Positions 10,340 to 49,028 of a stretch of DNA of 64,000 nt are shown one piece after another. The DNA is from Naegleria gruberi (lineage: Eukaryota), in NCBI GenBank assembly GCA_000004985.1, contig GG738920.1; one strand, given 5' to 3'. The notes beneath the pieces are model-generated. The model ran no database searches, was not told the origin of the DNA, and was given only the letters and a program-made list of their open reading frames with translations. Numbering within the stretch: the first letter of the stretch is position 1; each line of letters begins with the position of its first letter. A program made the position numbers and the translations under genes.

Positions 10340-10906
10340 TCAAAATTTATCAATTTCTCTCTTCTAAATATTATAATGCCTCTTGATGTGTTTGTTGTTA
10401 ATTGAGGGCGATGGTTTTCTTCAAAATCAAACGTTCAGTTTTGCTTTGGTGTTGGCTGGCGAGTTTTACTTCTTTTTTTTTGTTGTTTTAATTTGCTTAA
10501 TAGAACCAAAAGGAGAGGACTTTTTCCTCATTGGTCGTTGTGGCAGTTATTAAGATTTCAAACCACCTGCAGGAAAAGACCTTTTATCTCCAAGCATCTT
10601 TTTCATTAAGGATTCTCGCAGTGTTTGTTGGTGACTGTTCACGAATCCATTAAATTGCAACTTTTGGAAAGGTCCAAACTTTTTCTAATTATATTTATTA
10701 ATTGTTCTTTCTTCATCATCGTGGGATTGTTGACAGTAGTGAATGCTCATTCACTCACAAAATTGAAAACTAATCCATCTAAAAATCATATTGTTCATCT
10801 AATGTACATTGTCTACAGAAAATTTCACATGTCTGAAGGTACTTCTTTCATCTTCGAATACTTCATAATATTTTCTAATATTTCGAATATCTTCGGTGAA
10901 AATCAA

Positions 10907-15319: not shown

Positions 15320-15910
15320 TTAATACCAAGACCACCAGGTAAAGCCATCTTCTAAACCAATTTCATACTTGGTATCATCATTGGCATGGAGAGAGGCTAT
15401 TTCCTCCTTGACTACAACACACTGCACACCATTCTTTGCCTTGCTCTTTCTCTTCTCAATTTTAACCTTATTACTTGTTGGATGATGAATGAATGGATTT
15501 TCATTCTTAATTAATGATGAAGATGAGGAACCACCAGTTTGAGCTGATTTATCAGCAGCTTGATAGTGATGATGATGGAAAATGGTAACACCACTTGGAT
15601 TGGATGAGTGAACACTCTTCTTCTTTCTCTTTGGATTGGATTGTTTGTATTGATTTGACATTTTGTCTTCAACAAAGACAAATGTTTGCTTATCTAATGG
15701 TGTTGCAGTTTGAGTATGATTTGGAATCGATTGATTATATCTGATATGATTACTTTTTACAAGATCAGTGGTTGGGGATGTTGCACCATTTGATGAGATG
15801 GTTCCCATCATGGAGATTATTCGGTTGTGATTTGTGGAAGAAACAGTATTATTATTGGAGGATGATGACATTAAATTGTTGGTGTTGTGGAAATTTGTTA
15901 AGAGAGTCAT
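15320..15910 (-). CDS. hypothetical Ser/Asn/Thr-rich low-complexity protein
   Basis: 196-aa ORF with a real ATG at 15908-15910. It has poly-S/N stretches and HHHH, and ends ...GFTWWSWY. More 3' exons cannot be excluded, because the 1.6 kb downstream carries no long ORF. Confidence 0.35.
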   Translation of the reverse strand: MTLLTNFHNTNNLMSSSSNNNTVSSTNHNRIISMMGTISSNGATSPTTDLVKSNHIRYNQSIPNHTQTATPLDKQTFVFVEDKMSNQYKQSNPKRKKKSVHSSNPSGVTIFHHHHYQAADKSAQTGGSSSSSLIKNENPFIHHPTSNKVKIEKRKSKAKNGVQCVVVKEEIASLHANDDTKYEIGLEDGFTWWSWY

Positions 15911-19744: not shown

Positions 19745-21493
19745 ATGAACCAACGCGAGTATGAAGGCGATAAACAACCGTACAGCTGTATGCGGTGCAG
19801 GAAACATCATCGAAAGGTAGGTTGAAAGGGATTTTGTGTGATCTTAGGAACAAACGTAATATTATTATTTGTTTATTTGCATGTGGATGTGCTTTGAAAA
19901 TTTTTAAATATCATGTGGCGGTTATTTGTTGCATGTAATATAATAATAATTGATAATGATATTATAGTGTGATAGGAATCCTAAGGGATGTTCTAATTGT
20001 GGAAATTCTGGAGTAAAGTGTATTGTAGGTTTTTGTTTTTTGGAAGGCTAGTAATTAATCACACATTTGAAATAGTATGCCGATCAACTTCAAAACTCAC
20101 AACATCAAGAAAAGAAGGATGAACAATCACAACAGCAGAATACTCAGCAACAACAACAAACAATGACACCACAGACTTTGGTAGATGTCTACTTTTCGAT
20201 ACTTTGTGGAACACATCCTTTAATTGAGAAGGAAAAGTTTAAATATTTTGTAAATAATTGCTTGAACCAGTATAATGATATCAAAGCTAACGAATGGATT
20301 TCTTCGGTTGGTGAACTGAGATGTATTCACTGTTTCTACATGTCTAACATGTCTTTGGCGCTACAGTTAACTTCAGATATTAATCACACAAAAACTATTG
20401 GAATAACAGAGGCTCTTATTTCATCATTGGAAAAGGAACAATCTCACGAGTTTTATTGGGTTGCTTCTTGTTTTACATTGGTCATGTACTTTATTGGAGA
20501 GGGAGACTTTACAAAGGTCAATCACTACAACTCTAAAGTTTTTGAATATTTGAAAGGAGGTTATCAACACAAATTCACTTTTCACTTGTTGAGATATCAA
20601 TCATTTGTTAATTCTGGATTTGTTCATCATATTACAACCATGCAAAGTTTAATCAAGGATATGTGTGAACAATTCTTTTATAGTACTGGGAAAAGGCTTG
20701 AGGATTGTGTACTTCCAGGTACTATTGAACACATGAGAAGTAATTCAATAACAATGGAAAATAACCAAATGTACAGACAGGTCCATAACTTTGTCTCTGA
20801 TACTGTTGTAAATCTTGAAGGTGAAATGGTTAAACAATTAATAGATTGCCATTCAACTACATTTTTCAAACATCAAAGAATAGTAACATCAATGATACGG
20901 TTAGGATGTTCTCTCATGTTATTCAAACAGTCAGATTACTTCCTCAATGATACATCAATTGAGGAAACAGCCCTAATGATAACATTACTAACTGAAGATG
21001 AACTCTTCCCGTAAGTAGTAGTAATATTTTTACAATATATTAATTAACAATGATTTTTTACAGTTTCTGCATGTGCTATACAATATCTCCTATTGTTGAG
21101 ACATGTATCTATCACAAACAGTTGGTTGAAAATTGTATTGAACGCGGTACCAAACCAATGACCTCAACAATCATGACCTCCTCTGGAAATACTGTGACTG
21201 TCGACTATTTATCAATCCTTAAGAAGGATTTGAAAGCACTGATATCACTTGCCAAGAGATTTAAACGAGTAACACTCCTCTACCAAAACCTTATTGAAGA
21301 AATGACTCAAACCATTATGAGAAATACTTCACGAAGTGCAAGTAGTGATACCCGTTCTACCACCAGCTCAACCACAAACCGAACACAAATCGAGGCCTTT
21401 GCTGATGACACTATGAGAGAAGTATCGTCATTCAACGATTCTGCTGTCAAGATGGCTGAATCAGTTGACAATTTCTTTTCTTTTCTGTTTTAA
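19745..21493 (+). CDS. Zn2Cys6 (GAL4-type binuclear cluster) transcription factor, 4 exons, about 497 aa (Z1)
   Basis: Exon 1 is 19745..19816 (MNQREYEGDKQPYSCMRCRKHHRK). Intron 1 is GTAGGT...TTATAG at 19817..19967. Exon 2 is 19968..20024 (CDRNPKGCSNCGNSGVKCI), which completes C-x2-C-x6-C-x6-C-x2-C-x6-C. Intron 2 is GTAGGT...AAATAG at 20025..20075. Exon 3 is 20076..21010 and runs in frame into tool ORF 20163..21014. Intron 3 is GTAAGT...TTACAG at 21011..21063. Exon 4 is 21064..21493, which is tool ORF 21050.., and ends in TAA. All phases are consistent. Confidence 0.6.
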
Positions 21494-21580: not shown

Positions 21581-22870
21581 ATGAAAACAACACTCATCCA
21601 CAACTGCAACACTCAACCTTCCCTTGAGGAACTGATTGAATTCTCTCCGGTTGCCTGTCTTGATTGTAGAACCAACCATAGAAAATGTGACAGGAAGAAA
21701 CCAACATGTGCTGCATGTCAAATAAGAGGCTTCGATTGCACATACTCAAAAACTATGAAAAGAAAGCTCAAGAAACAAATCATCCACAACCAACTGGAAC
21801 AAGATTATAACATGATTGATTTTTATTTTAATTTGGCAAGTTATGGTCTTCCGATGGTTGGACGAGATGAGCTGAAAAGTTTTTTGACGTTGCTAGTTGA
21901 AAATGGTGGTGAAATTCCTAATAATGAGGATAAACAAGTACTAGAAATGGCTGCTCTTTTCTATTCAATTAAAGCCATTTGTGAATGCTTCACTGGAACA
22001 ATGGAAGATGCAGAGAAGGCAGCCACCAAATCAAAAAACTATCTGTCTCATGTATTTGATAGACATTGGAGTGTACTGGTTGTTGCCTGCTATTATTACT
22101 TGTGTTGGTTTGATTTTATGGTTGGAAAAGTGGAATCATCCCAATTCTATAGACAAATCTTAAAGTTTGCAAAGGAAAAGTTTGAGAAATCAACAAGACA
22201 ATTGAGTAATTTTGAGAGGAATGCCTACGAATGTATTTGTCATGTGGACGAATTCATGTTCAACGAAGAGGGAGAAGTCAGAGTGATGAATTTCGAATTA
22301 TTCATCCAATCTATTCCAAGAATGTACATTTTCGACAAGAGTAGTCTTCCTAATGGATGGAATTACTATATGAAAAATCCACACCTTATCGATTCCACAA
22401 ATTGTTTCGAAGTTTGGACCATGTTGGAGATGATTTTACATGAATCAAGGGAGAATGATCTCGAATTGATTCCAAACTTTGCTGAACTTATTAACTTGTT
22501 TTACAATATAACAGAGAATGGCACACGATTGGGCATACTATCAAAGGCCTCTAATGCATCTAGCTCACTATTGATAGAGCATGCAATGGAGAAGAGTGCA
22601 TCAGAAATAGCTTTCGCAACAACAAGTATCCACTTTAAAACCCTTCCAATAGAAATCATGATACATGTTTCAATTGCTACCAATTACCATCTCGAGAAGG
22701 TGAAGAGTGGTGTTCTCTTTCCTAAGAGAGGAGGGATAAGCTACTTGGATCTGCTATCTAAGGAGCTTCAGGCCTACAATTATTTTAAGCAAAAATTTTT
22801 GATTACTTCTCGTCATTTCTCAACCCTATTTTCACAAGTTGAACAGGTGGCAGGATTATTGAATGTTTAG
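21581..22870 (+). CDS. Zn2Cys6 (GAL4-type) transcription factor, single exon, 429 aa (Z2)
   Basis: Real ATG at 21581. ACLDCRTNHRKCDRKKPTCAACQIRGFDC gives C-x2-C-x6-C-x6-C-x2-C-x6-C. A basic stretch (KRKLKKQ) follows the cluster. The region after the zinc finger resembles the corresponding part of Z1 (IDFYFNLASYGLP... vs VDVYFSILCGTHP...). Confidence 0.65.
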   Translation: MKTTLIHNCNTQPSLEELIEFSPVACLDCRTNHRKCDRKKPTCAACQIRGFDCTYSKTMKRKLKKQIIHNQLEQDYNMIDFYFNLASYGLPMVGRDELKSFLTLLVENGGEIPNNEDKQVLEMAALFYSIKAICECFTGTMEDAEKAATKSKNYLSHVFDRHWSVLVVACYYYLCWFDFMVGKVESSQFYRQILKFAKEKFEKSTRQLSNFERNAYECICHVDEFMFNEEGEVRVMNFELFIQSIPRMYIFDKSSLPNGWNYYMKNPHLIDSTNCFEVWTMLEMILHESRENDLELIPNFAELINLFYNITENGTRLGILSKASNASSSLLIEHAMEKSASEIAFATTSIHFKTLPIEIMIHVSIATNYHLEKVKSGVLFPKRGGISYLDLLSKELQAYNYFKQKFLITSRHFSTLFSQVEQVAGLLNV

Positions 22871-26600: not shown

Positions 26601-29600
26601 GGAAATATATAGATTTGAAACAACCAACTGGTCTCTTCTTGACAGAAAGTGGTGTTTTATATATTGCTGACTCTGGTAATCATAGAATTAGAAAAGTTGA
26701 AAATGGAACAATCTCAACAGTGATTGGTTCTGGATATTCTTGTTCATCTGCTGGAGCTGCTTCTTGTGATAGCACTGATCCTCTTTTGGTCAAGTTGTTG
26801 GTAAGTTATTCGACACTAGTTCGTATGATAATTTTGGTTAATAGACTCCTGCTGCTGTTTATATCACTAAATCAGGAGATGTCTATGTTGCTGATACAGG
26901 AGTAAGTTATTTGATTGATATATTTCAAAGTAATCCTATCAAATTAACTATTTAGAATAACAAAGTAAGAAAGTTGAGTAATGGAATTTTGAGCACTGTT
27001 GTTGGCACCTCGTTGGATCTTCCAACTGGTTTATTCGTCGATGAGAGCAACAATGATGTTTACATTTCTGATCGTGTAAGTTTTTCAATCTTCCTTTCAA
27101 AAATGTTTACATTTTCAATAATCTTTCAAATTATTTTAATAGACTCGTACTGTTAGAAAAGTTTCTAAAGGATTTTTATCAATCTATGCTGGTACGCTTA
27201 ACAATGCAGTATATTCAATCTCTGGAAATGTTTCTTTCTGCTATCCAACTTCAATTCTTCAAACTAATGATGGAATTCTTGTTGCTGACACTGAAAGTGG
27301 CTTGATCAGATCTGTCAAACTTTCCTGTCCAACTGGATACTATGGATTGAACTGTGAATATTACAACTGTTTTGGAATTAGCAGCTTAAACTCAAATACC
27401 TGCAATGGATTTGGTAATTGTTCAGCACCTGACGTTTGTAGTTGTGACAGCAGTCATGAAGGAAGTCAATGTGAAATTGGAAAGTGTTTTGGAATTTCAA
27501 AAAATAACTCAATGGTTTGCACTGGACATGGGTTATGTCTTTCACTTGATACTTGTTCGTGTAATGGTGATTATTACGGTGAAAAATGTAATTTACCTTA
27601 TTGTTTCTCAATCAGATCAAACGAAACTTCTGTTTGTTCTGGACAAGGCAACTGTGTTGAAAAGGATCAATGCTCATGTAGAAATAATTATTTGGGAGCA
27701 ATGTGTGAAAATGCACCATGTTTTGGAGTTTCTTACAACGCATCTAATGTTTGTTCTGGAAATGGAGAATGTGTTTCTCTCAATAACTGTACTTGCGATG
27801 AAGGTTATTATGGAGATTTATGTAATTTACCAATTTGTTTCTCTATCAAATCCAATGACTCATCAGTTTGTTCTGGACAAGGTGATTGTATTGGAAAGGA
27901 TCAATGCTCATGTAGAAATAACTATTTAGGAGCAATGTGTGAAAATGCACCATGTTTTGGAATTGTTTACAATGCAACAAATGTTTGCAGTGGACATGGA
28001 TTGTGTGTTTCAGGAAGTTGTCAATGTTCAGATAATTATTTTGGATCTAACTGTAGTGTCACCACTTGTTTTGGAACGGCCAGTAATGACAGCTCAGTAT
28101 GTAGTGGTAATGGTATTTGTTCTTCTTTTGATGAATGCAAATGCTCAACTGGATACACTGGAGTTAATTGCAATGTTTCAACTTGTTATGGATTACCTGC
28201 CACTAATGCAAGTGTATGTAGCGGACATGGATTGTGTACTTCTCCGAACCAATGTTCTTGTAATCAAGGTTGGAATGGAACTTATTGTAATGTTACTTCC
28301 TGTTTTGGTATTGTTTCTACAAGTGTTTCCAATGTTTGTAATGGACATGGTTCATGTATAGCTCCAAATGAATGTTCATGCAAACAAGGATATCTTGGTT
28401 CTTCATGTAATGTTACTTTCTGTTATGGAGTTTCTTCCAATGAGTCCAATGTTTGTTCTGGTCACGGAACTTGTGGAGATTTAAATTCTTGTTCCTGCTC
28501 TTCCGATTGGTACGGATCCAAGTGTAACATTACCACTTGTTTCGGTATTAAGGGAGACCAAAATACTGTCTGCAGTGGCCATGGCTCATGTCCATCAACC
28601 AATCAATGTAACTGTCAAGAGAATTATTATGGCACATCATGTTCTGTTCGTTGTGACTCTAATACCTGCAATGGACATGGTAACTGCTCATCAACAGGTC
28701 AGTGTCAATGTTTCTCAGATGTAGAACATGGTTTCTGGACCTCTTCTAATTGTTCGAAATGTGATTCGAATAGGTATGGTGAAAATTGTTGGGTCACTAT
28801 TGGAAATAGTTCAATGGTTACTCCAGATGGAATTGGTCTTTTATTGCAACTTGTTAATCCTAATGCAAATATTAAGAATTTGCAAGTCGATTGTAATATT
28901 TTACTTTCTTCTGAGACTATTAGAAAGTTGGATTCACCAATTTGTAGATGGACTAATTTATCAACAAGTGAATTGACCATTCAAATGGGTCTTGAAAATA
29001 GTATTCAATTAGGAGATTCTTTATATGTCAATACTAATTATTTCAACACAGCCAACTTGAAACCTTCTTACATTCCAATAACTGTCATGAAAAATTCGAA
29101 TCCAACTGTTTTACCAGAAGCTGTCATTTCCACAACTTCCAAATCTTTCAGTAATTGTGATTCAATTGTTATTCAAGGATCTGAAAGTAGAGACAAGAAT
29201 TATAGAGATTTGACTTTCGAATGGCGTTTCGTCAACTCTCCTCTTTCTCCTTCTGCCTTATCTCTCATTACGCTAACCAAACCAACACTTATTTTGGCAG
29301 ATAGTCAACCATCTGGAAATTATATTGTTGAACTCGTTGTCATTTCCAAATTTGGAGCAAGAAGTTTGCCAGTTTCTTATTCATTCAAGAAACTTTCTGC
29401 CAGTATGCCACAAATCAATGCTGAAAGCAATAGTATGGATGTATTTGTCGATAGACTTCCAATAATTGTCAAGAAATATGTTTCGTACAAGTCATGCTTG
29501 GGAGAAATTTTAAAGTCGAATGAATATACAGTGAATTGGACTCAAACCAGTGGACCAACCAATGCCAAATTCGAAACTTTACCTAACGGAGACTTGGCAA

Positions 29601-31942
29601 TTTATTCATTCCAATCTCAATTGTCCAATACTTTCACATTTGTTGCAACTTTGAATTATTCAATGGAAATTGCAAGCACAAAGGTAACAATCAATACTCA
29701 TGAACCTAATTTTGCAGTTTTGGTTTATCAAACTGATTTGAATTCAACTCATGTGACTGTCAATGTTGAAAGTGATCCAGTTGAAAGTTTGGCTCAATAC
29801 AAGGATAATATTCAGTTTACTTGGAATTGTAAGAATGTGGACGAAACTAATTGTGATTCTTCCATTTTGAATACTCTTGCTTATCACGGCAATGTTAAAT
29901 CGACCAAATTCATGTTGGCTCGTAAATCTTCATTGTCAATTCGTCTCGGATTGGATGTTACCTTATCAGGAAATAATCACAGCAATGAAATGGTTGTCAC
30001 TTTCCCTAAGGACGAAACTGTTCCAGTTGTTGAATTGGTTTCAGTTTCTCCAGCTGGTTCTCAACTCACCACTGAAGACATTTTAACCATTCAATTATTA
30101 GTTCGTGTCAGTGGTCAAATTGAAAATATCGATTCTTTAATTACAAGAAATTGGAATCTCAATGGTCAACCAATTAGTAACGATTTGGTTTTATCCCCAT
30201 CTCCATCTAAATCCAATTACATTTCTCTAGATTTATCCAAACTCAGTGCTGGTTCATCAAACACTTTGCTATTCAACGTTTCAAGTGTTTCGTCTAAGTT
30301 ATTCTCAACATTTACCTATTCCTTCTCACTTGCTCCAAATCCATTGCCATGTTCATGTTCTGTTAGTCCATCAACTGGTTTCGCTCTTGAAACTCTTTTC
30401 ACAATCAGTTGTCCTAATTGTTTGACTTCCAACACTGCTCTTCAAGTTTTATTCACAGATGTCAAGACTGGAGTCAGAGTTCCACTCATGGATGCAACTG
30501 TGTCTGAGTTGACCACTCAATTACCATATACAGGTGATGAACAACTTCCATTACATTTTGTTGTTAGAAATACCAAGACAGGAGCCAAGACTGAAACCTC
30601 AGTTTTACAATCGGCTAAAGTTCCATCCGCTATCTCATTGTCAGAAGTCAAGACAAAGAAGATGGCTTGGAATGCTTTTTATAGATCTCTCTATGCTAAT
30701 GATCCAAGAAAGGTTGTTTTCAATTATATTTCAACTGTTGTCAAAGAAATGACTAGAAGAAACTCTGTCACCAGAAGAAACTTGAAGGTAACAAACTGTT
30801 TAAATGGTGGAGTGTATAATTCATTCACCAAGATGTGTGCTTGTAAGAGTGGATTCAAGAAGATTGACTGTAGCATGACTCTTTCTGATTGGAATGCAAT
30901 TGTTTTGGATAATTACGAAACTGCCAAATCAGTCATTGAAGAATTGAATTCCAGAAATAGTTTAGAAGCCCCACAAGAATCCAAGATTGCCAGCCAAATT
31001 TCATCTCTCTATCACTTGCTGGAAACTGTCGACGAGAATAGTCCAGAATTGCTCGATCAAGTTCTTTCCATTTTCAACAATACCATTCAAGATGCCACCA
31101 AATTCTCTTACATTACAATTTCGAATTCATTGGCAAGTACAATGTCTGAAATTTTGGGATTACTTTACAAGAGTCAACTCTATAATGCTGGTAATGTGAG
31201 TGTTGAATATTTTGCAAAGATTAGAGAATTGCTCAACTCGGTTGCATCTATCAAGTACAGAAATCAATTGATTGGAAGTTCTATTGATTTTGATGCTGAT
31301 ATGTTCAAGTTGACTGGAACTAAACTCTATCCTATGGATTTATCTGGAAAGAATCTTGATACAATGATTCAACTTCCAACATTAATGACCAAATATTTGA
31401 AGAATGGAGACATGAGAAAGTCAATTAGTCCAAGAATTTTCAAGAATTCAATTATTCAATCCAAACAAACTTCTGAAATTATCAATAATCAAACAGTTGT
31501 AACATACGAAACCACTCCAGGTTACTCTCTTTCCTTAGAATTCATTAATCAAAATGTTGACATTCAAGAAAAAGTTGTTAATTATTACTTTAACCTTACT
31601 AAGACAAATATTTCTGCATACAGCAATATTAAGAACTTGGTCTCTGAAGTTGTTTGTGAAAGTGATCAACCATGTGAATTACAAACCTTAGAAACAAACT
31701 TTTATGCATGTAAATGTGCCCTTCCATCCCATGTAACAGTTAGAGAGAGAACTACGTTCACTATTGTGCCAATAGTTCCACAAAATTCTATTCCAACTCC
31801 TCAAAAATCAATTGTTCCAAAAGTTTCTCCAAAAGTTTCCAAGATTGCCACTGTTTCTGATGCTTTGCAATATTCTGGAATTAATGGATGTATTGTTGGT
31901 TTGTTAATTGTTTTATGGACCTCTGTTGCTGTCTTCTTTTAA
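23609..31942 (+). CDS. giant secreted/surface protein: signal peptide + about 10 NHL blades + about 11 EGF-like repeats + about 1100-aa Ser/Thr/Asn-rich glycosylated region + C-terminal hydrophobic anchor (12 exons, about 2570 aa)
   Basis: Exons, +/-3 nt: 23609..23934, 24033..24486, 24552..24778, 24823..25144, 25187..25406, 25450..25713, 25756..26402, 26446..26545, 26613..26800, 26845..26901, 26956..27075, 27143..31942. Introns are 42-98 nt, all GTAAGT...YAG, and all phases close. The signal peptide is MKIPSGIILLLLLGFAAAWLLA. NHL blades include CGDGGLASSA..., ADSGNHRIRKVENGTISTV and DNNVRKLSNGILSTVVG. EGF-like repeats of about 32 aa follow the pattern CFG..(10)..C.G.G.C....C.C..(8)..C. The protein ends GCIVGLLIVLWTSVAVFF, a TM or GPI signal. 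Near 23879 the ORF-track frame was used where it disagreed with the printed text by 2 nt. Confidence 0.65.
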
Positions 31943-31982: not shown

Positions 31983-34900
31983 TTATTCAAAAACTTCAGC
32001 AAATTCAGTAGCACTTCTTCCAAATATTTCAGGAGTGTACATTTCTTCTGCCTTCACACCTGGGATAACAAATGAACCGATTGAGGTAGCTCTAGCAATG
32101 TAGGTAAATTCGTGAGTGCCTTCCCATAACAATGAGCTAAATGCCTCAACTCTCTCATCTCTAATGTTGTGGTGTTCATACCAAATTGGATTAAACCACC
32201 AACACCACCAACCGTTTGATCTACTATTGGTTCCACTTCCACTTACAGTAGCAATATCTGGAGTTCCTTTCAATTCTGGATTGATTGGTTCAAGACCAGC
32301 AGGTAAAAAGTCAACTAATGCAACGTGATATCTACGACTGGTATTGGTCATGGTCAACTTGATACGAACCAATTCTCCAGCCTTAAATCTCCAAGTGTTT
32401 CTTTCTCTATCAAATGTAACATGAGAAGAATCAGTCACGTGTTCATAAGTTCTTTGAACTTCAAATCCATAATCCAATGCATCAACAAGCAAGTTCTTTG
32501 GAGCATATTCCATTCCAATTCTGTAATATAATCTTCCAGGTCCATGCTTGGAAATAGCAAGTGTCTTTTGACCATTCTCTAATAAACTCATTGGAATGCT
32601 CAATTGGTTTTCATCCTTGGATCTTCCCTTGAAAACTTGCTCTCCACAATAATCTTCACCTAGCCACATGTTGGCAACAAAATCTGGTGTCACACCTTCG
32701 AATACGTTAAAGTATGTATTAAGGGAAAGAAGGATGAAAACATTTTCTTGAGTATTTTCCCATCTACCTTTCTTTCTATGAGCCAGTAAGCCCTTGACAA
32801 TCTTTGGAATAATATAATTTTGAGGAGTAATATTAATAAGAGCTTCTAAGCAAATACCATCAGTTCTACGATTGCTGTGCAACATGACATGTTTAGTGGC
32901 CATTGCATCACCATAGCTTGTGATAAAGTTTGCTGTTTGAGCAGTTTCATTCACATGCTTATTCAAATGTTCAATGATTTGATTAACAGAAGTAGTGGCT
33001 CTCTTATTATTTGATAAATATATGGCAGTAGCCAACCAAGCTAAATGTTCAAAATTACCTGAAAGTTTGTAAGTTTGATAAAGTTTTTCAGCTAAATTCT
33101 TTGCCTCAGAATCATCTAACAATGCCAAAGCATAGTAGGCATATGCCTTGAGTGATTTGATAGTCTCCTCAGAGTAGTTCTCACAATAACTTTCAATACT
33201 TCTCAATACTGGAACCAATTTTGAGAGAGTGGATTCATTCACTGAATATCCTGCAAGCCTGGCTCTAGCAAGGGAATGACCGACGTGGCATGTAACGTAT
33301 GGACTGATACGATGATCCACTCCATTAAATGACCAGTAGCTGAATCCACCATTTGGATATTGTCTTGTTGATAATTGTCTGAGTCCTTGATTAATATTTT
33401 CATCAAGGTTTTCCTTTGTTGGAAGCTCTTGTAATTTGAAAGCAAGAAGAATATCTTTAAGAGCTAAAATTGATAATAATCTACTAGAAATTTGTTCAGA
33501 GCATGCGAAAGGATAATTGTACAAATAAAGGAAACTGTCAGTGAGTGAAGACAATGCAGTAGAGCTGGTTGAAATCTTGAGACCTCCAAATTGTGTGAAA
33601 ACATCTTGAGGAGCCTTTACAGGTTGGAACACTGAGCTATCACCATCCATTTCACCATAAGTTGCAAATGCTTCAGTTGTGGCTGGAGTAAATACTCTGA
33701 TTTCTTTTTCAACAGCATCAGAGAAGTTTACACCAGAAGTGGCGATAGAGACACCAACTTGGAATCTGGCCACACCCACCCTATCAGTAGTCATGGGGAA
33801 TCTCAATTCAGCCCTTCCTAAAGCTGGTATTCTAATCTTGAGTCCTTTCTTTGAGGTATCCAACAAGTTCAAATTGGTAAAGTTAATAGCAGCATGTACC
33901 TCCAAACTTAATTGGGTTTGATTTTGTAAAACACATGTAAATTCTGCTCTATCGCCAAAGTTCAAGAAACGAGGTAGGGATGGTCTGATTGACAATGGAA
34001 GTTGAGCAATCATAGATGATTCATGAATTCCAAAATTCCAATCTCCCTTAACAGCCACAGCTGTGATTCTGTACTTGGTAAGATTATCAGGAAGTTTAAA
34101 TTTAACAGAGGCCACTCCTTCAGAGTTTGTCTTGTTGGTTGGGCTAAAGATGGCAAGAGGATTGAAATTAGATCTCACTACAATCTTTGGTTGTTTGGAT
34201 AGTTTAGCTCCTCCTCCACCAAATCCACCTACACAACCATCACCACAACATGCACATTGGCAACAAAGGTCGTCACAACAACAGCATTCATTCATACAAT
34301 CTTCAAAACAACAATTAGCGCAAGAACTGCATGCTCTAGCAAAGCGACAACAGTTAGTAGGACTTCGCATTAACGGTAGTTCCTCTTGGAAAACAATACC
34401 ATCATAGCTCTTAACAAAAACATTATTTCTGATGGAATAAGTTTGATAATAGCTGCTGTATTCTCTAACAAATGTATCTAGAGGATTAGCAATGGTGTGG
34501 CCAGTTAATGACAATACAGCTTCATCCACAGCAATGATACAAACTTCACATCCTTCTAAAGGTTTACCAGTTATTGGATCCTTAACAATGACATCAATGC
34601 TAGTTTCGCTTCCAGGTGTCAAATATTCCCTTTCAGGCTTGGATTCAACAGATAAGGTTCTGGAAATCTTTGAAACCTTAATCATACATTCACCACTTGC
34701 AAAAGCAGGTTGTTTTGGTAAATCCTCAAGAACATTACCTATAGCATCAACCCTTGATTCGCAACCAGTAACTTCAGCACTGACGAAAATATTTGGAATA
34801 TGGTCAGAAGTAATGTCAAGTTCAAATTCAATATAGCCAGGCTCACCATCAATTTGAATAGGATGTTGGCTATGTATTCCATGAAGTCTTGTGAATAAAA

Positions 34901-37900
34901 CACCTTCACACCTTGTTTCAAAAGGAGATTGAATTAAAATCTTAGCCTTTTCTCCAATTTGATATTCAGTCTTGTCTGGAAGTAGAGTGAGTTGTTTCTT
35001 TGTAATATTCTTTCCAAGTTTTTGCTCCCTCACAGAAGCACCTGTAATGTACAAGCTTGTTGAAGAGTTATTAGTTTGGCCTGTTTCAGAATCAACAATA
35101 TCAACAGAGAAATAATAGATACCACCATTTCCAAACTTTAAAGGAACGTCAACAGCTTCCTTTCCTGAAGTGAAAACTTCATCAACAATTTCAATAGTTT
35201 CCGAAACAAATTTGTATCCCTTCTTTACCTGTACATTGGTGGTTACTTTCAATTTCATTGGAATACCAGAAACCAATTTTCCATCAATGTCAGAAACAAT
35301 TAGAGAAGCAGTTATTGGAATGTTTGGTTTGGCGAATTGTTTGCTCAACTTGATTCCACAATAATATTTACAAGGGTGAACAAGGAAGGAAGTAGATGAA
35401 GAAATGGTTTGTCTATTGATATCTTGTACAGTTGCCTCCACTGAGATGGTAACTGGTGTCTTTACCAAACGATCACTTTCATCAAAGGCAATAGCAACTT
35501 GATGCTCACCATTAACATCTGTAGTACCTTCAAAGCTTGTAACATCAAGAGCTGATCCACTTGGGAATAAATAATTTGCTACAGAGGAACCTCCAAAATT
35601 GTATGAGGATTGGTTTGGAGGAACATAACTACTACTGGTTTGTTTGATAGAATAAGAGCATTTAGCTCCTGAGATTCCTCCTCCACTATAGTAAGTAGCA
35701 TTAGTGGTACAAAGAGCAGAACCACCAACAATGTAGTTTCCAGCAGGTACTGAAGATTTAGATTTGAACTCTGGTGTTCTAAATTCTTGAACTTGGAATT
35801 GATGGAAGGCAGAGAACCCATCTAATGAGATGGAGTGACTTCCCAAGTTGGCATTATCAGGAACTTTGAATTGAATATCAAAAGTACCATCTTCACTCAG
35901 AGTTACATTACCAGAATGATACTTTTGACCTCTCGCATCCAAGACTGTGAAAGTAGAACTAGTTTTTGGTATTTCAATCTTTTCAACATTGTCAATCAAA
36001 TTGAAGTTTCTTACATAACCCTTGATGGAAACTGTTTCATTAGGCTTGTAAAGTCCTCTATCGTTGAACATGCAAGCAACAGTTTGTGGTTGATATGGAT
36101 TGTAATAGTGATAAATATCTGGAATGAAGCATGTATCTTGACCTTGAGTGGCAATAGCCTTCACATATGCTCCATATTGTTGTTCATGACCAATATTACG
36201 TATACAACCAATACCAGTTGATGAGTTAGGTGTATTTGGGGAATGATTGTTGAATTTGAAGGTTACATTATCCTTAATAATACTTCCATCCAACAATGAG
36301 TTAACCCAATAGTATACACTTGATGAACTTGTGTCAAAAACACAATCAACAGAAATTTTGGTTGCTTGAATCCAAGATGTGAAACCAGGTCTTTGATTCC
36401 ACTCACCCTTCCAGCTACTTTTTTCTGGCTCAACAATAACAAGCAATTGACCAATATTTTCAGATGGATACTGAAGATAGGAATGAAGATTGATTTCAGT
36501 CTCCACTGGTTCGTCAATTTCTCCCTTTGTTGAAATGACACTATCACAAACCAATTTACCAGGATATTGAATAGTTGAATAGGTGTTATGATGAAGAATA
36601 GATGAAGAATACATATTTGGTTGGACTTGATAAACACTCAAATGTACAGAATCCAAATTTACAGTAACAATTGGGTAGGTTGGAGTTGGATTCAAAGTTG
36701 GATCTAAAACAATCACACCAGTCTTGAATGCTTGGAGTGATTGACGTGCACTTTTAACAGTAAATTCTACAGTGGTGTCTGGAAGGATTTGACCCCAAAC
36801 ATCAACCAAATTCTTCAAGAAAACCTTATAAGTAGTTCTTCCTTTGATTTTACCAGAAACACTGATAGTGCATCCGTATGGATTTAATTCCATTCTTTCT
36901 ACTGGTGGTGAAACAGTTACCATACTTTCTGTTAATTTTTCCAAATCAATATTTGTTGTAAAATTCAATCCAAAAGCCTGCATTGGTAGCTCACCACCGT
37001 GTTTTCTTTCAAACTTGAAAGCTGGATAATTCTTGACTTGATTGCTTACATCCTTTTGTGTTGGTAATGGACCTTCTGACCCAGTAACTCCACTCTTGAC
37101 AACTACTTGAGAGGAGAGACCAAGTTTGTGACTAGTGGTAAACCACAAATGTCTTCCATCTGGAGCATGTTTGAGTTTTTGTTCGTAAAACGAATGAATG
37201 CTCCTATCTCTCTTCTCCAATTCATAATCTTTCAAAACTTTAACAATGTGCTCCTCAACGAGAGGATTCGAAGACTTTCCATCATGAATCAAATTGGCAC
37301 TTTGATTATCGATAGTAATAAATTTGATCACTTCACTTGGATTAATTTCTTGATCAAACTCACAATAGTAAATTGGTACTTCGTTGAGAGGATGAGCTTG
37401 TTGGTTTGGGAAAAATTGCTTTACATATAATCTTGGAGTTTCAAAACTAAATGTCAAATCTTCCTTCAAAGTTCCTCCAATTTCTGATTTGGTACCCTTC
37501 TTGACAGTAACTGTATACTTGGTAGACATGTCAAATCTGTAATTAGCTTCATAAATTAAAGTTTTTGTTCCCAACCACTTGAATTTTCCTCCCTTCTTTG
37601 GGAGTGGTGAAATTTCTACTGGAATATTATGACTTTCTACTTCTGCAACACCACTCACAGGAACCATTGGTTGAGAGAAGGTAATAGTCACAGATGGAAC
37701 TGATCTATCCAAAACACCTTCTGGTGAATAACGAAGCACACTCAAATCAGATCCTAACAACTTTGCCTCCTCTTCAATCAATTCCTTTGGTTTTTCCAAA
37801 CTTATTTCAGGTGGAAATGGAACACTATTAATCTCGGCAGTAATTGGTGCCTTCAATGATTTTTCTCTAATGAGAACAATAATTAGATAGAATTTTCCGA

Positions 37901-37913
37901 TTATTATTATCAT
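31983..37913 (-). CDS. alpha-2-macroglobulin / thioester-containing protein (A2M/TEP/CD109 family), about 1976 aa
   Basis: One uninterrupted ORF. The first in-frame ATG is at 37911-37913 (MIIIIGKFYLIIVLIREKSLKA, signal-peptide-like). The thioester-domain signature LYLYNYPFACSEQISSRLLSILAL (codons at + 33492..33503) aligns with A2M PYGCGEQNM. RQYPNGGFSYWS lies downstream, as does TCHVGHSLARARLAGY, which matches LTAFV...A. VRSNFNPLAIFSP matches the FPETWLW segment that follows the bait region. The C-terminal MG8/RBD-like region contains GRLYYRIGMEY. A poly-Cys low-complexity insert NCCRFARACSSCANCCFEDCMNECCCCDDLCCQCACCGDGCVGGFGGGG sits at about + 34205..34370, at the bait-region position. Confidence 0.75.
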   Translation of the reverse strand: MIIIIGKFYLIIVLIREKSLKAPITAEINSVPFPPEISLEKPKELIEEEAKLLGSDLSVLRYSPEGVLDRSVPSVTITFSQPMVPVSGVAEVESHNIPVEISPLPKKGGKFKWLGTKTLIYEANYRFDMSTKYTVTVKKGTKSEIGGTLKEDLTFSFETPRLYVKQFFPNQQAHPLNEVPIYYCEFDQEINPSEVIKFITIDNQSANLIHDGKSSNPLVEEHIVKVLKDYELEKRDRSIHSFYEQKLKHAPDGRHLWFTTSHKLGLSSQVVVKSGVTGSEGPLPTQKDVSNQVKNYPAFKFERKHGGELPMQAFGLNFTTNIDLEKLTESMVTVSPPVERMELNPYGCTISVSGKIKGRTTYKVFLKNLVDVWGQILPDTTVEFTVKSARQSLQAFKTGVIVLDPTLNPTPTYPIVTVNLDSVHLSVYQVQPNMYSSSILHHNTYSTIQYPGKLVCDSVISTKGEIDEPVETEINLHSYLQYPSENIGQLLVIVEPEKSSWKGEWNQRPGFTSWIQATKISVDCVFDTSSSSVYYWVNSLLDGSIIKDNVTFKFNNHSPNTPNSSTGIGCIRNIGHEQQYGAYVKAIATQGQDTCFIPDIYHYYNPYQPQTVACMFNDRGLYKPNETVSIKGYVRNFNLIDNVEKIEIPKTSSTFTVLDARGQKYHSGNVTLSEDGTFDIQFKVPDNANLGSHSISLDGFSAFHQFQVQEFRTPEFKSKSSVPAGNYIVGGSALCTTNATYYSGGGISGAKCSYSIKQTSSSYVPPNQSSYNFGGSSVANYLFPSGSALDVTSFEGTTDVNGEHQVAIAFDESDRLVKTPVTISVEATVQDINRQTISSSTSFLVHPCKYYCGIKLSKQFAKPNIPITASLIVSDIDGKLVSGIPMKLKVTTNVQVKKGYKFVSETIEIVDEVFTSGKEAVDVPLKFGNGGIYYFSVDIVDSETGQTNNSSTSLYITGASVREQKLGKNITKKQLTLLPDKTEYQIGEKAKILIQSPFETRCEGVLFTRLHGIHSQHPIQIDGEPGYIEFELDITSDHIPNIFVSAEVTGCESRVDAIGNVLEDLPKQPAFASGECMIKVSKISRTLSVESKPEREYLTPGSETSIDVIVKDPITGKPLEGCEVCIIAVDEAVLSLTGHTIANPLDTFVREYSSYYQTYSIRNNVFVKSYDGIVFQEELPLMRSPTNCCRFARACSSCANCCFEDCMNECCCCDDLCCQCACCGDGCVGGFGGGGAKLSKQPKIVVRSNFNPLAIFSPTNKTNSEGVASVKFKLPDNLTKYRITAVAVKGDWNFGIHESSMIAQLPLSIRPSLPRFLNFGDRAEFTCVLQNQTQLSLEVHAAINFTNLNLLDTSKKGLKIRIPALGRAELRFPMTTDRVGVARFQVGVSIATSGVNFSDAVEKEIRVFTPATTEAFATYGEMDGDSSVFQPVKAPQDVFTQFGGLKISTSSTALSSLTDSFLYLYNYPFACSEQISSRLLSILALKDILLAFKLQELPTKENLDENINQGLRQLSTRQYPNGGFSYWSFNGVDHRISPYVTCHVGHSLARARLAGYSVNESTLSKLVPVLRSIESYCENYSEETIKSLKAYAYYALALLDDSEAKNLAEKLYQTYKLSGNFEHLAWLATAIYLSNNKRATTSVNQIIEHLNKHVNETAQTANFITSYGDAMATKHVMLHSNRRTDGICLEALINITPQNYIIPKIVKGLLAHRKKGRWENTQENVFILLSLNTYFNVFEGVTPDFVANMWLGEDYCGEQVFKGRSKDENQLSIPMSLLENGQKTLAISKHGPGRLYYRIGMEYAPKNLLVDALDYGFEVQRTYEHVTDSSHVTFDRERNTWRFKAGELVRIKLTMTNTSRRYHVALVDFLPAGLEPINPELKGTPDIATVSGSGTNSRSNGWWCWWFNPIWYEHHNIRDERVEAFSSLLWEGTHEFTYIARATSIGSFVIPGVKAEEMYTPEIFGRSATEFAEVFE

Positions 37914-37924
37914 GATGTTAATCG

Positions 37925-38218
37925 TCACACAAAATTTAAAAACACAAACCTCATGAAGAAATCCTTTTGATCACCACCTTCTGATTTTACATTCGGAAGT
38001 CTACTCAGTAATCTCTGAGTTTCCTCCTCTGACAAACCCTCAATGGTTGCCGATAAATTGCTACTTGATTCATTGCTACAACTCTTTCCTTCCATCATGA
38101 TCAATGATCGGGTTGTATCCTCTGCAGTAGGCTCTCTAACACTCAACTTTAATGCACCACCCAATGATGCACTTTCAAGTTCATTGTCAAGCAATTGCTC
38201 GAGATCATATCTAACCAT
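37925..38218 (-). CDS. small acidic Ser-rich ORF (97 aa); either a separate gene or a 5' exon of the A2M/TEP gene
   Basis: Real ATG at 38216-38218. The ORF stops 1 nt before the tool start of the A2M ORF. ...DQKDFFM|R is followed by GTTTGT, and a TAG acceptor at about 37846 (cattag|AGAAAAATCATTGAAGGCACCA) would join it in frame to ...EKSLKAPITAEIN of the A2M ORF, giving an intron of about 85 nt. Confidence 0.25.
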   Translation of the reverse strand: MVRYDLEQLLDNELESASLGGALKLSVREPTAEDTTRSLIMMEGKSCSNESSSNLSATIEGLSEEETQRLLSRLPNVKSEGGDQKDFFMRFVFLNFV

Positions 38219-46155: not shown

Positions 46156-49028
46156 TTAAAGCTCATTGTTTTCCTGTGGGTTGACTTCGTAAACTTCAGA
46201 TTGATTGGATATATTATTTGGTTGGGAAATAATGGGATATTGTACTGGGTTGTCATTATTTGTTACAGTTGAGGAGAGGGGAGGAAATGATGATTCACTC
46301 TCTGTCATTTCAACTGAAGGAGTAATTGGATCTTGCATATTTGTTGATGAATTATCAGTTCGAGTATTCAAGTAATAGCTTGGTATGGAAAAGTAGTCCT
46401 TTGGACAACGTTGGTTGAATTCTTCCTCAGCAACAATCTTTCTCACATTTTCCTTCAAATCGAATACATCAATCACACCATTCAATTGTTCACAAACTAC
46501 AATTGCTTCCAATCCCCATTTAAGGTATTGTCTAATTCTGTGGATGGTATGGTTTGGAACTTCTGAAAGTCCTAGAACAGATAAATCATCTACAGAAGAA
46601 CCAAATAAAGATTCTTGAGAGCCATACAATCCAAAAACTCCAGTCATTAGGGCAGTTGATTGTAAAGTTTCCAATTCTTCGAGCTGAATTTCTACAGCTT
46701 TAACAATGCACGGAAGGACCACTGGACCACTGAAATAGAAAGCATCATTTCTTGTTGCTTCAATGACAGAATAAGATGCTAATATTGAGGTTGGTGTGTT
46801 AATGTTTGGAAGTGTAGAATAATTTTCACTCGTTTTTGAGGAACACATATCATCTCCAACAATGGATAACTTTGATACAATAATACTGATAGTGTCAGCA
46901 ATCATCTGGGAGGTCAAGAGAGAAATATTAGCAGAGAGTGGAGGGATAAAATTTTTGAGTACTTGATTTCCATAATTGAGGAACTCTTTGGAAAGTTTCA
47001 TTCTTTCTAAACATTCATCGAAGGAGATTCCTTTCTGAGTGTTAGAGCAAGATATACTTGCACTTGGATGGGCACGAACCGATTTGCAAGGTATGGTCAG
47101 GTAGTTCTCAACCCAGAATGAAGTTTCATTTTCAATTTCTCTTATTCTTTGTTCATCTTCTTCATGAATGTGAAGGTAAGAGTATTCATAAAGAAGCTCA
47201 TCTGCTTGTGGGGATGGAGGTAATAATCTCTCGTTATTCTTCTTTTGTTTCAAAGTTTTGATTAAAAATTCGGTAGTTGTTGCCGATTCTTTTAAATTTT
47301 GAAGTTTTGAGAGAGTATTAAATTGAGAAACTATTGTAGATGAGTGTAATTCATTCAAGCAGACGAGAAATTCTTGAACTTGGGATGATGTTAACTTGTT
47401 CTTAATCTTTTTCGAGAAGAGTATAACTTGAACATGAGAGAGTAATAGATGAAGTAAATGATCTTCAATATCCAAGTCTTTGATAGTATTCCTATATTCT
47501 TTCCATCCATGTTGTGAGTGAATACTACTAGTGGTTGTATCATGTTTGGCTACTCTTGATTCCAAATACGATGATACCTTAGTTATGTACTTGGATGCTT
47601 CCTCTGGATGTCTATTAGCAACTAGAAGTGAAATGTAGGAAAAACATATTAATACTCGTATTAACGTTTCGTGATCGTGGGATTTAACATGCTTTTTAGC
47701 TTTTAAATGTAAATAGAAAGGTTCCAGATATGACTTTGCCTTATTGAGGAGAAATTCCGAGACTTGAGGGAGGCCTACTCTATCAAATGCTAAAGACTGG
47801 ATACATAGAAAGAGTGAATAGTCAACATGATCGATATCTGAGAGTTTTTGCTCTTTGGATCTTATGGCAATGTGATGAAAATTTGAAGAGTCGTGTCCTA
47901 TAAGATGAGCAAGTTCTGGGGTTGGAGTTGATAAAGAAAGAGGTGTCAAATCTATAGAGAAATCAAGGGATGATGGCAAATTTGTTGAAATGTGAAGAGA
48001 GCTAGGTTTTTTGTGATGATAGTAATGTTGATCGTGATGATTTTTGTGCTGTTCAGTAATATTATTATGATTAGGTTCATGAGTTTCCTCACAAAGACGG
48101 TACAGAATGGAGATGATGTATGTTTTCAAAATATTTTCACTTGTTGGTTCGTCATCCACTGTTCCTAATTCGTTTGTCATAAAGTGGAAAGATACTAATG
48201 AATCATACAAGCATAAATCTCTAACGAGCTCCAATTTCCGTTTTGCAATTGATGAAGGTTGAATTTGTGGTAGAACTTGCTCCACAAACATACTCAAAAT
48301 ATTCTCATAGGTTTCATATTTTGGATCATCAAATGGTGACTTGTCTATTTGTTGTAATAATTCAATCCTTTTGTGTGCAGGTTGATGTTCATCCCGATGT
48401 GGATGTAAAGTTGGAACACCAGAAACAATCACTGGCTCAGCTCCATCTTCCTCCTCACTTTTAGATATTTCCTCATCATGTACATGTTTTACACCATGTT
48501 TTTCCTTCTTGTTCTCCTTTTTGTGACTTTTTTCAGTTTTTTCCACAATGCTATCTCCTTCGTTTGTTGCAGTTGAAGGAGCGTTAGAGAGTGGCACCAA
48601 AGTCTTGGTTGGTGATTTTGCTTTTCTATTACGTTTAGCCTGTGGATAAACACAAACTTTGTCTTTCCTACGACAATTAGAACAAATTGGCAATGCTTTA
48701 TCACACTAGTAGCAGATGTGGTAAATAAAGAAATTAATCCATCCAATAATTAATTTTACAAAGATGATCAAAAAAACAATGATAAAAAGCATAGTAAACA
48801 AACCTTTCTATGTCCCTTTCTACATTCTCTACAGGCAATTGGAGAATAGGTTTGAAGTACTTCCACAAGAGGTTGATCGGAGGAGGTTGAATTTTGAAGA
48901 TCAACATTGTCTGTTGTTGCCCCATGATCAAATAATTCTTCTTCATCACTTTCATCTTCTAAATCTTCATCACTATTCACAATGACTTTGTTTTTCGTCG
49001 ATGATGATGTATTTCCTGTTGCAAACAT
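46156..49028 (-). CDS. Zn2Cys6 (GAL4-type) transcription factor, 2 exons, about 924 aa (Z3)
   Basis: Exon 1 is 48804..49028 (ATG at 49026-49028; ...YSPIACRECRKGHRK). A GTTTGT...CTACTAG intron lies at about 48706..48803. Exon 2 is 46156..48705 (CDKALPICSNCRRKDKVCVYPQ...), which completes C-x2-C-x6-C-x6-C-x2-C-x6-C. The tool ORF 46156..48693 begins on TTG inside exon 2. Confidence 0.65.

What the first reader, a model, noticed from the sequence alone, without database searches (positions are those of the whole stretch)
46156..49028. Third Zn2Cys6 gene shares a phase-0 intron position inside the zinc cluster with Z1, 27 kb away
In both Z3 (minus strand) and Z1 the binuclear cluster is interrupted at exactly the same place. 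The sequence runs C-x2-C-RK(G/H)HRK, then the intron, then C-x6-C-SN-C. Z3 reads ...ACRECRKGHRK | CDKALPICSNCRRKDKVC and Z1 reads ...SCMRCRKHHRK | CDRNPKGCSNCGNSGVKC. The two introns differ in length and sequence (98 nt starting GTTTGT in Z3, 151 nt starting GTAGGT in Z1). This indicates an old shared intron and therefore a native, vertically inherited family, rather than a recent horizontal acquisition from fungi.
Basis: seen in the sequence. Interest (0 to 1): 0.5.

Follow-up and report, generated by a model that had tools for sequence, protein, structure and literature searches.

The report
Shared intron site, Naegleria zinc-cluster genes
Two Naegleria gruberi zinc-cluster transcription-factor genes are split by an intron at the same codon boundary, but the matching genes in related amoebae lack that intron or carry one a few bases away, so it is not good evidence for an old intron.

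Summary
The window is Naegleria gruberi. Z3 (46156-49028, minus strand) has a 98-nt GTTTGT...CTAG intron, and Z1 (19745-21493, plus strand) has a 151-nt GTAGGT...TATAG intron. Both are phase 0 and fall between HRK and the third Cys of a Pfam-significant Zn2Cys6 domain. Orthologue alignment confirms the Z3 junction. My Z1 model is identical to the N. gruberi reference protein.

The Z3 orthologues of N. lovaniensis and Willaertia magna have no intron there. The N. fowleri orthologue has an 89-nt intron 4 nt upstream, in phase 2. A Z2-like W. magna paralogue has one 13 nt upstream, also in phase 2. Z2, its N. lovaniensis orthologue and an Acrasis kona relative have none in the cluster. So the site-0 intron was seen only in N. 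gruberi, while four of the seven introns in nine genes fall within 14 nt. I favour repeated insertion at a hot spot (about 0.45) over one ancestral intron with many losses (about 0.35).

The family is long resident in Heterolobosea, but that is shown by the orthologues, not by the intron. Ancient transfer from fungi is not excluded. This is an ordinary gene family with a mildly interesting intron pattern.

The parts
46156..49028 (-). Z3 gene: two exons, 924-aa Zn2Cys6 protein, stop codon included.
   Evidence: Pfam PF00172 at 31.3 bits against a cut-off of 21. Orthologues in N. fowleri, N. lovaniensis and W. magna at 43%, 39% and 27% identity.
48804..49028 (-). Z3 exon 1, 75 codons, ending ...IACRECRKGHRK.
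   Evidence: The tblastx match ends exactly at 48804.
48706..48803 (-). Z3 intron: 98 nt, phase 0, GTTTGT...CTACTAG, between HRK and the third Cys.
   Evidence: Its absence from the contiguous orthologues L001 and L002 defines both boundaries.
46156..48705 (-). Z3 exon 2, beginning CDKALPICSNC and running to the stop codon.
19745..21493 (+). Z1 gene: four exons, 497-aa Zn2Cys6 protein.
   Evidence: 100% identity and 100% coverage to N. gruberi predicted protein P0004. Pfam PF00172 at 33.2 bits.
19817..19967 (+). Z1 intron 1: 151 nt, phase 0, GTAGGT...TATAG, at the same domain position as the Z3 intron.
20025..20075 (+). Z1 intron 2: 51 nt, phase 0, directly after the sixth Cys plus Ile. It contains an in-frame stop.
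21011..21063 (+). Z1 intron 3: 53 nt, GTAAGT...TACAG.
21581..22870 (+). Z2 gene: a single 429-aa ORF in tandem with Z1. Its Zn cluster is uninterrupted (CAT AGA AAA TGT GAC).
   Evidence: The N. lovaniensis orthologue P0081 is also intronless.

Best explanation
Shown: Z1, Z2 and Z3 are real N. gruberi genes for Zn2Cys6 (Gal4/LAC9-type) zinc-cluster proteins. Z1 and Z3 each carry a true spliceosomal intron at the identical phase-0 site, just before the third Cys codon. The family is long resident in Heterolobosea.

Inferred function: they are sequence-specific DNA-binding transcription regulators.

Inferred origin of the coincidence: the identical position is most likely not one old intron inherited by both genes. 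It more likely results from repeated, independent intron insertion into one short A/G-rich stretch, ...TGY AGA AAG GGN CAY MGN AAR TGY GAY..., which encodes the conserved CRK-GHRK-C motif near the 5' end of these genes.

That stretch has been interrupted at three different points within 14 nt, in four genes of three species:
- site 0, phase 0, in N. gruberi Z1 and Z3;
- site -4, phase 2, in N. fowleri Z3;
- site -13, phase 2, in W. magna P0158.
The closest relatives of each of these genes are uninterrupted.

Given such a hot spot, two of four insertions landing on the same site is unsurprising. The cause of the hot spot is not established. Candidates are the local sequence context, break-repair-mediated gain, or selection for a 5'-proximal intron.
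For: Site 0 is occupied only in N. gruberi. The N. lovaniensis and W. magna Z3 orthologues are contiguous there.

N. fowleri and N. lovaniensis Z3 are 79% identical, yet they differ in intron presence. The N. fowleri intron lies at -4 in phase 2. The event is therefore recent.

W. magna P0158 has its intron at -13 in phase 2.

The offsets of 4, 9 and 13 nt are not multiples of 3, and the protein alignment has no indel in this region. Simple sliding is therefore unlikely.

Four of the seven introns in nine genes lie in a 14-nt span. P is about 6e-8 with uniform placement and about 1e-5 with a strong 5' bias. Given four hits on 5-14 usable sites, an exact coincidence has P of 0.37-0.81.

Z1 and Z3 resemble each other only within the Zn cluster and are the least alike of the three genes. 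Their introns share no similarity.

From my own knowledge, not tested here: parallel intron gain at the same sites has been reported in Daphnia populations.
Against: Intron loss generally outweighs gain. Also, 30-50% of N. gruberi intron positions in conserved genes are shared with other supergroups (PMC3174169), so an old intron with several exact losses is a reasonable prior.

No insertion mechanism is demonstrated:
- no repeated, introner-like copies of any of the four introns in the roughly 180 kb held;
- no sign of origin by duplication of flanking sequence;
- the exon sides of the six N. gruberi introns I read show no strong consensus.

The N. gruberi and N. fowleri Z3 introns show weak similarity (local score 26 against 18.6 +/- 3.1 for shuffles, p of about 0.03). 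That could indicate homology.

Only nine heterolobosean gene structures could be read.
Confidence: 0.45

Rival explanations
1. One intron at site 0 existed in the common ancestor of the Z1 and Z3 subfamilies, before the Naegleria-Willaertia split. It was kept in both N. gruberi genes and removed precisely elsewhere by reverse-transcript-mediated loss.
For: The exact position and phase are shared, which is unlikely by chance under random placement (P of 7e-4 to 7e-3). N. gruberi keeps many ancient intron positions (PMC3174169). Exact, scarless absence in N. lovaniensis and W. magna is what such loss would produce. Both retentions being in the same genome fits a lineage that loses introns slowly.
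Against: It needs at least four independent losses: W. magna Z3, N. lovaniensis Z3, the Z2 lineage and A. kona P0030. It also needs two extra events to explain the introns at -4 and -13. Those nearby introns imply a local gain bias or sliding anyway, which removes most of the force of the coincidence. No species other than N. gruberi shows site 0.
Confidence: 0.35
2. Intron sliding within the Z3 orthologues. The N. gruberi intron (site 0, phase 0) and the N. fowleri intron (site -4, phase 2) are the same ancestral Naegleria intron. Its boundaries moved by 4 nt, and N. lovaniensis then lost it.
For: These are orthologous genes with introns 4 nt apart and of similar length (98 and 89 nt). There is a collinear weak similarity, TTTTTTTG..ATC.TC..TGT..ATTAATT.TTGGA, with p of about 0.03.
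Against: A 4-nt shift needs two exactly compensating changes with no change in the protein. The p of 0.03 is no better than the best of 16 control comparisons, which reached 0.017. From my own knowledge, published surveys support sliding only for shifts of about 1 nt.
Confidence: 0.12
3. The intron was copied between Z1 and Z3 by ectopic gene conversion. The two sit about 29 kb apart on one chromosome and are 15/18 identical around the junction.
For: They lie on the same scaffold, and the flanks are similar: CGAAAG|TGTGATAGG against AGAAAG|TGTGATAAA.
Against: The introns differ in length (151 and 98 nt) and share no similarity (p of about 0.4). The flanking exons are otherwise only about 50% identical at protein level.
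Confidence: 0.03
4. A gene-model artefact: one of the two junctions is wrong.
For: No transcript data were available here. GTTTGT is not the commonest donor among the introns I read.
Against: Orthologue contiguity fixes both Z3 boundaries to the base. Only this acceptor keeps the reading frame. The Z1 model equals the reference protein. Both spliced products give a full-length PF00172 match.
Confidence: 0.02

Closest known systems
Fungal Zn(II)2Cys6 binuclear-cluster DNA-binding domain (Pfam PF00172; Gal4, LAC9, RSC3/RSC30)
   Same: Six Cys with C-x2-C-x6-C-x6-C-x2-C-x6-C spacing and a basic stretch before the third Cys. All three proteins exceed the Pfam cut-off. The best solved relative is the LAC9 domain, 1cld, E = 1.6e-5.
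   Different: The host is a heterolobosean amoeba, not a fungus. The cluster carries a distinctive PIAC-x2-CR-x2-H-[RK]-[RK]-CD signature, with His where fungi mostly have Lys or Arg. No Fungal_trans middle-homology domain was detected. The C-terminal regions are specific to Heterolobosea.
Zinc-cluster transcription factors of Amoebozoa (22 in Acanthamoeba castellanii, 3 in Dictyostelium discoideum; PMC4053784)
   Same: They show that the family occurs outside fungi, as lineage-specific expansions in free-living amoebae.
   Different: They belong to a different supergroup. No orthology to Z1, Z2 or Z3 was shown, and their intron positions were not examined.
Identically placed introns in duplicates of a horizontally acquired gene in Acrasis kona (PMC11589745, Fig. 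3)
   Same: Same phylum. Paralogues share intron positions because the introns were gained before the duplication.
   Different: In that case the donor is bacterial, so the introns must post-date transfer. For the Zn_clus genes no transfer is demonstrated, and the two genes are anciently diverged paralogues.
Parallel intron gain at hot spots, and near-intron pairs (Daphnia population gains; near-intron-pair literature). From my own knowledge, not tested here.
   Same: Independent introns lie at the same or nearly the same site in related genes, while close relatives are uninterrupted.
   Different: No flanking direct repeats, no source sequence and no population data are available here. The events are older.

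Membership tests
Zn(II)2Cys6 binuclear cluster (PF00172) | Six cysteines with C-x2-C-x6-C-x5-12-C-x2-C-x6-8-C spacing. | tested here: met
   Z1, Z2 and Z3 all have C-x2-C-x6-C-x6-C-x2-C-x6-C after splicing.
Zn(II)2Cys6 binuclear cluster (PF00172) | Profile score above Pfam's gathering cut-off of 21 bits. | tested here: met
   Z3 scores 31.3, Z1 33.2 and Z2 37.5 bits, each covering profile positions 1 or 2 to 38 of 39.
Zn(II)2Cys6 binuclear cluster (PF00172) | Binds two zinc ions and recognises CGG-type half sites, usually as a dimer. | not testable with these tools
   Inferred only from homology to LAC9, RSC3 and RSC30.
Fungal zinc-cluster regulators with a middle homology region (Fungal_trans, PF04082/PF11951) | A Fungal_trans domain downstream of the cluster. 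| tested here: not met
   No Pfam family other than Zn_clus at E <= 0.01 in Z1, Z2 or Z3.
Evolutionarily conserved (orthologous) intron | Same position and phase in orthologues of other species. | tested here: not met
   For Z3: N. lovaniensis has none, W. magna has none, and N. fowleri has one at -4 nt in phase 2.
Evolutionarily conserved (orthologous) intron | Same position and phase in paralogues of the family. | tested here: inconclusive
   Met for Z1 against Z3. Not met for Z2, N. lovaniensis P0081, A. kona P0030 or W. magna P0158 (-13 nt). The ORF-derived proteins P0032 and P0150 are contiguous by construction.
Introner-like or transposon-derived introns | Several similar copies of the intron sequence in the genome. 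| tested here: not met
   No copy of any of the four introns in the window plus loci, about 180 kb. Whole genomes were not available.

The most novel reading that the evidence does not exclude
The roughly 14-nt stretch that encodes CRK-GHRK-C in heterolobosean zinc-cluster genes is a recurrent intron-insertion hot spot. At least three, probably four, independent gains occurred in Naegleria and Willaertia. One of them is recent enough to distinguish N. fowleri from N. lovaniensis. This would be a small natural system for studying how new spliceosomal introns arise in an intron-poor protist.
Probability: 0.45. Interest if true: 0.45.

Novelty: new member of a known kind. Interest (0 to 1): 0.27.

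Why it matters
For annotation:
- It confirms a correct two-exon model for Z3. No N. gruberi protein matching Z3 was returned by the search.
- It shows that the reference Z2 model omits its DNA-binding domain.

For the question of fungal-type regulators outside fungi:
- Zn2Cys6 proteins form a sizeable family with its own signature across Naegleria, Willaertia and Acrasis. The genes are not recent imports.

For intron evolution:
- It is a warning that an identical intron position in two paralogues is weak evidence of age when orthologues have not been checked.
- It offers a compact candidate case of recurrent gain, or of unusual positional instability, that could be settled with genomes already public.

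None of this overturns current views.

Tried and rejected
- Exact look-ups of window proteins (Z2, the neighbouring 923-aa ORF, Z1/P0004) found nothing on record. N. gruberi DNA outside the window was therefore unavailable, and no genome-wide survey was possible.
- A search with the 48-column Zn-cluster alignment in the search for homologous proteins returned nothing, because of that tool's word requirement.
- The metagenome scan with the Z3 alignment gave only two unrelated zinc-cluster loci, L004 and L005, at 40% GC.
- Literature searches for Naegleria with Zn2Cys6, Zn_clus or zinc cluster, and for intron positions in zinc-cluster genes, found nothing directly relevant.
- SRR3989338, the source of the close Z3-like fragment P0009, could not be identified as DNA or RNA. 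P0009's contiguous cluster is therefore uninformative.
- Tests for an origin of the introns by local duplication or as repeated elements were negative.
- One fungal comparator, Chytriomyces P0015, has the cluster closest to Z1 among the named fungal hits and is intronless. One gene says nothing general about fungi.
- I first took P0117 for a Z1 orthologue and then rejected that. It is closer to Z2 and to P0158.

Full report
**Identity of the window**

The window has about 34% G+C and short GT...AG introns. The spliced Z1 protein is 100% identical over all 497 residues to a predicted protein of Naegleria gruberi, P0004. Z2 is identical to N. gruberi XP_002669971 over the latter's whole length. 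The best hits of Z3 are proteins of N. fowleri, N. lovaniensis and Willaertia magna. The window is therefore N. gruberi (Heterolobosea). N. gruberi DNA outside the window could not be fetched.

**Check of the observation**

A six-frame motif scan finds exactly three zinc-cluster genes.

- Z3 lies on the minus strand, from the ATG at 49028 to the stop ending at 46156. Exon 1 (49028-48804) ends ...IACRECRKGHRK. Then come 98 nt, GTTTGT...CTACTAG (48803-48706). Exon 2 begins CDKALPICSNCRRKDKVC.
- Z1 lies on the plus strand, starting at 19745. Exon 1 ends at 19816 with ...SCMRCRKHHRK. Then come 151 nt, GTAGGT...TATAG (19817-19967). Exon 2 begins CDRNPKGCSNCGNSGVKC.
- Both introns are phase 0 and fall between columns 12 and 13 of Pfam PF00172. 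All three spliced proteins match that profile above its cut-off: 31.3, 33.2 and 37.5 bits against 21.
- Z1 has two further introns, 20025-20075 (directly after the sixth Cys plus Ile) and 21011-21063.
- Z2 (21581-22870) is a single ORF with an uninterrupted cluster.

The Z3 junction is fixed by comparison. In tblastx the two window segments that end at 48804 and begin at 48705 match segments that abut in N. lovaniensis and in W. magna. The spliced protein reproduces a 23-residue stretch, IACRECRKGHRKCDKALPICSNC, that is nearly invariant in the four species; W. magna differs at two residues.

With random placement, the Z3 intron would hit a Z1 intron site with P of about 7e-4. If all introns lay in the first 300 nt of the CDS, P is about 7e-3.

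**What the orthologues show**

- The N. lovaniensis Z3 orthologue (L001 10001-13033, 1010 aa) and the W. magna one (L002 10001-12865, 954 aa) are exactly three times the protein length plus a stop. They read CAT CGT AAA TGT GAT and CAT AGA AAG TGT GAT without interruption.
- The N. fowleri orthologue (L003 10001-13128) is 89 nt too long. Its intron is 10252-10340, GTATGT...ACATAG, in the context CAT CG | intron | A AAG TGT. That is phase 2 inside the Arg codon, 4 nt upstream of the N. gruberi site. ORF calls from two other N. fowleri assemblies begin just after it (P0006 and P0007).
- N. fowleri and N. lovaniensis Z3 are 79% identical. Their difference in intron presence is therefore a recent event.

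**What the paralogues show**

An exhaustive profile search gave 1494 hits. Among the best of them, many carry the signature PIAC-x2-CR-x2-H-[RK]-[RK]-CD. Nine of the 20 that I could name are from N. gruberi, N. lovaniensis, W. magna or A. kona.

- W. magna P0158 is Z2-like and sits next to an alpha-2-macroglobulin gene, as Z1 and Z2 roughly do in the window. It has a 104-nt intron (L007 5210-5313) in the context AGA AA | intron | A GGA CAT CGT AAA TGT. That is phase 2, 13 nt upstream of site 0.
- A. kona P0030 is related to Z1 over 531 aa. Its only intron, 40 nt, lies at residue 177/178.
- The N. lovaniensis Z2 orthologue P0081 (36% identity over 417 aa) is intronless, and no second zinc-cluster gene lies within 10 kb of it.
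- The chytrid protein whose cluster is closest to Z1 among the named fungal hits (P0015) is intronless.

**Relationships between the genes**

Z1, Z2 and Z3 resemble each other only in the cluster. Z1 and Z3 are the least alike. Z3 has full-length W. magna orthology. Z1 and Z2 share full-length homology with W. magna P0117 and P0158 and with A. kona P0030. The Z1 and Z3 lineages therefore separated before Naegleria and Willaertia did. An intron homologous in both would have to be at least that old.

**Weighing the explanations**

In nine heterolobosean genes read from DNA there are seven introns. Five lie in the roughly 90-nt cluster-coding region (P of about 2e-6). Four lie within a 14-nt span (P of about 6e-8, or about 1e-5 if half of all introns fall in the first 300 nt). 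Some common cause is needed.

- One ancestral site-0 intron needs at least four precise losses. It also needs separate explanations for the introns at -4 and -13.
- Sliding by 4, 9 or 13 nt would need exactly compensating changes, since the protein alignment has no indel there.
- Independent insertion needs a strong local bias. That bias is already implied by the three distinct positions. Given it, two of four hits coinciding has P of 0.37-0.81.

I therefore favour recurrent gain (about 0.45) over ancestral retention (about 0.35).

Several points count against recurrent gain:

- Loss usually dominates intron turnover, and N. gruberi keeps many ancient positions (PMC3174169).
- I found no mechanism. 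There are no repeated copies of the introns and no local duplication.
- The N. gruberi and N. fowleri introns show a weak collinear similarity (p of about 0.03). That is no stronger than the best of my control comparisons.

'Native, not a recent acquisition' is right, but for another reason. Orthologues and paralogues across Naegleria, Willaertia and Acrasis, host-like base composition and host-type introns all show long residence.

'Old shared intron' is not supported by the orthologues. A shared intron in paralogues could not in any case exclude an ancient transfer. In A. kona, a bacterial gene gained introns after transfer and then duplicated, giving identically placed introns in both copies (PMC11589745).

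Zinc-cluster factors are already known outside fungi, for example 22 in Acanthamoeba (PMC4053784). Whether the heterolobosean family descends vertically from an early eukaryote or from an ancient transfer remains open.

**Function**

By homology to LAC9, RSC3 and RSC30, the three proteins are inferred to be zinc-dependent, sequence-specific DNA-binding regulators. Nothing here tests that.

**Verdict**

The gene family is ordinary. The pattern of intron positions is modestly interesting and can be resolved with public genomes.

Noticed in passing
window 21581-22870 (+): The N. gruberi reference model for Z2 (XP_002669971 / P0156, 371 aa) equals Z2 residues 59-429. It starts at an internal Met and omits the Zn2Cys6 cluster, which lies in the same open reading frame. 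The N. lovaniensis orthologue P0081 keeps the cluster.
   Followed up: partly
window 46156-49028 (-): No N. gruberi protein matching Z3 was returned by the homology search, although the N. gruberi proteins for Z1 and Z2 are in the same collection. Z3 may be missing from the reference gene set.
   Followed up: no
window 31983-37928 (-); L007 1-4637: A 1981-aa single ORF encodes a bacterial-type alpha-2-macroglobulin (MG2, A2M_BRD, A2M and bMG10 domains). In W. magna a similar gene sits directly beside the Z2-like zinc-cluster gene P0158, which suggests conserved linkage.
   Followed up: no
window 20025-20075 (+); proteins P0084, P0075: Z1 has a second phase-0 intron right after the sixth Cys plus one residue. 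Two unnamed short ORF products (…GLKCIVGNTL* and …GLKCTVSLITF…) look as if they run into an intron at the same place in other family members.
   Followed up: no
window 27302-31942 (+): A 1546-aa ORF with many teneurin-type EGF repeats and a REJ domain.
   Followed up: no
window 578-2101 (+), 15320-15799 (-), 46156-49028 (-) against L001: Three genes spread over the 64-kb N. gruberi window have their counterparts within 12 kb in N. lovaniensis (an ankyrin gene, Z3 and a 218-aa gene). Linkage is conserved, but order and spacing are rearranged.
   Followed up: partly
proteins P0010-P0023: Many top profile hits from unnamed sources carry 2-10 zinc clusters in one polypeptide. P0010 has ten. That is an unusual architecture for this domain.
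   Followed up: no
L004 3001-3093; L005 472-564: Two near-identical metagenome contigs at about 40% GC encode a GHRKCDK-type zinc cluster at the start of a gene that appears to be interrupted by introns. The organism is unknown.
   Followed up: no
L009 6431-7501 (-): A DDE_3 transposase gene lies 2.5 kb upstream of the N. lovaniensis Z2 orthologue. N. lovaniensis has no Z1-like neighbour there.
   Followed up: no
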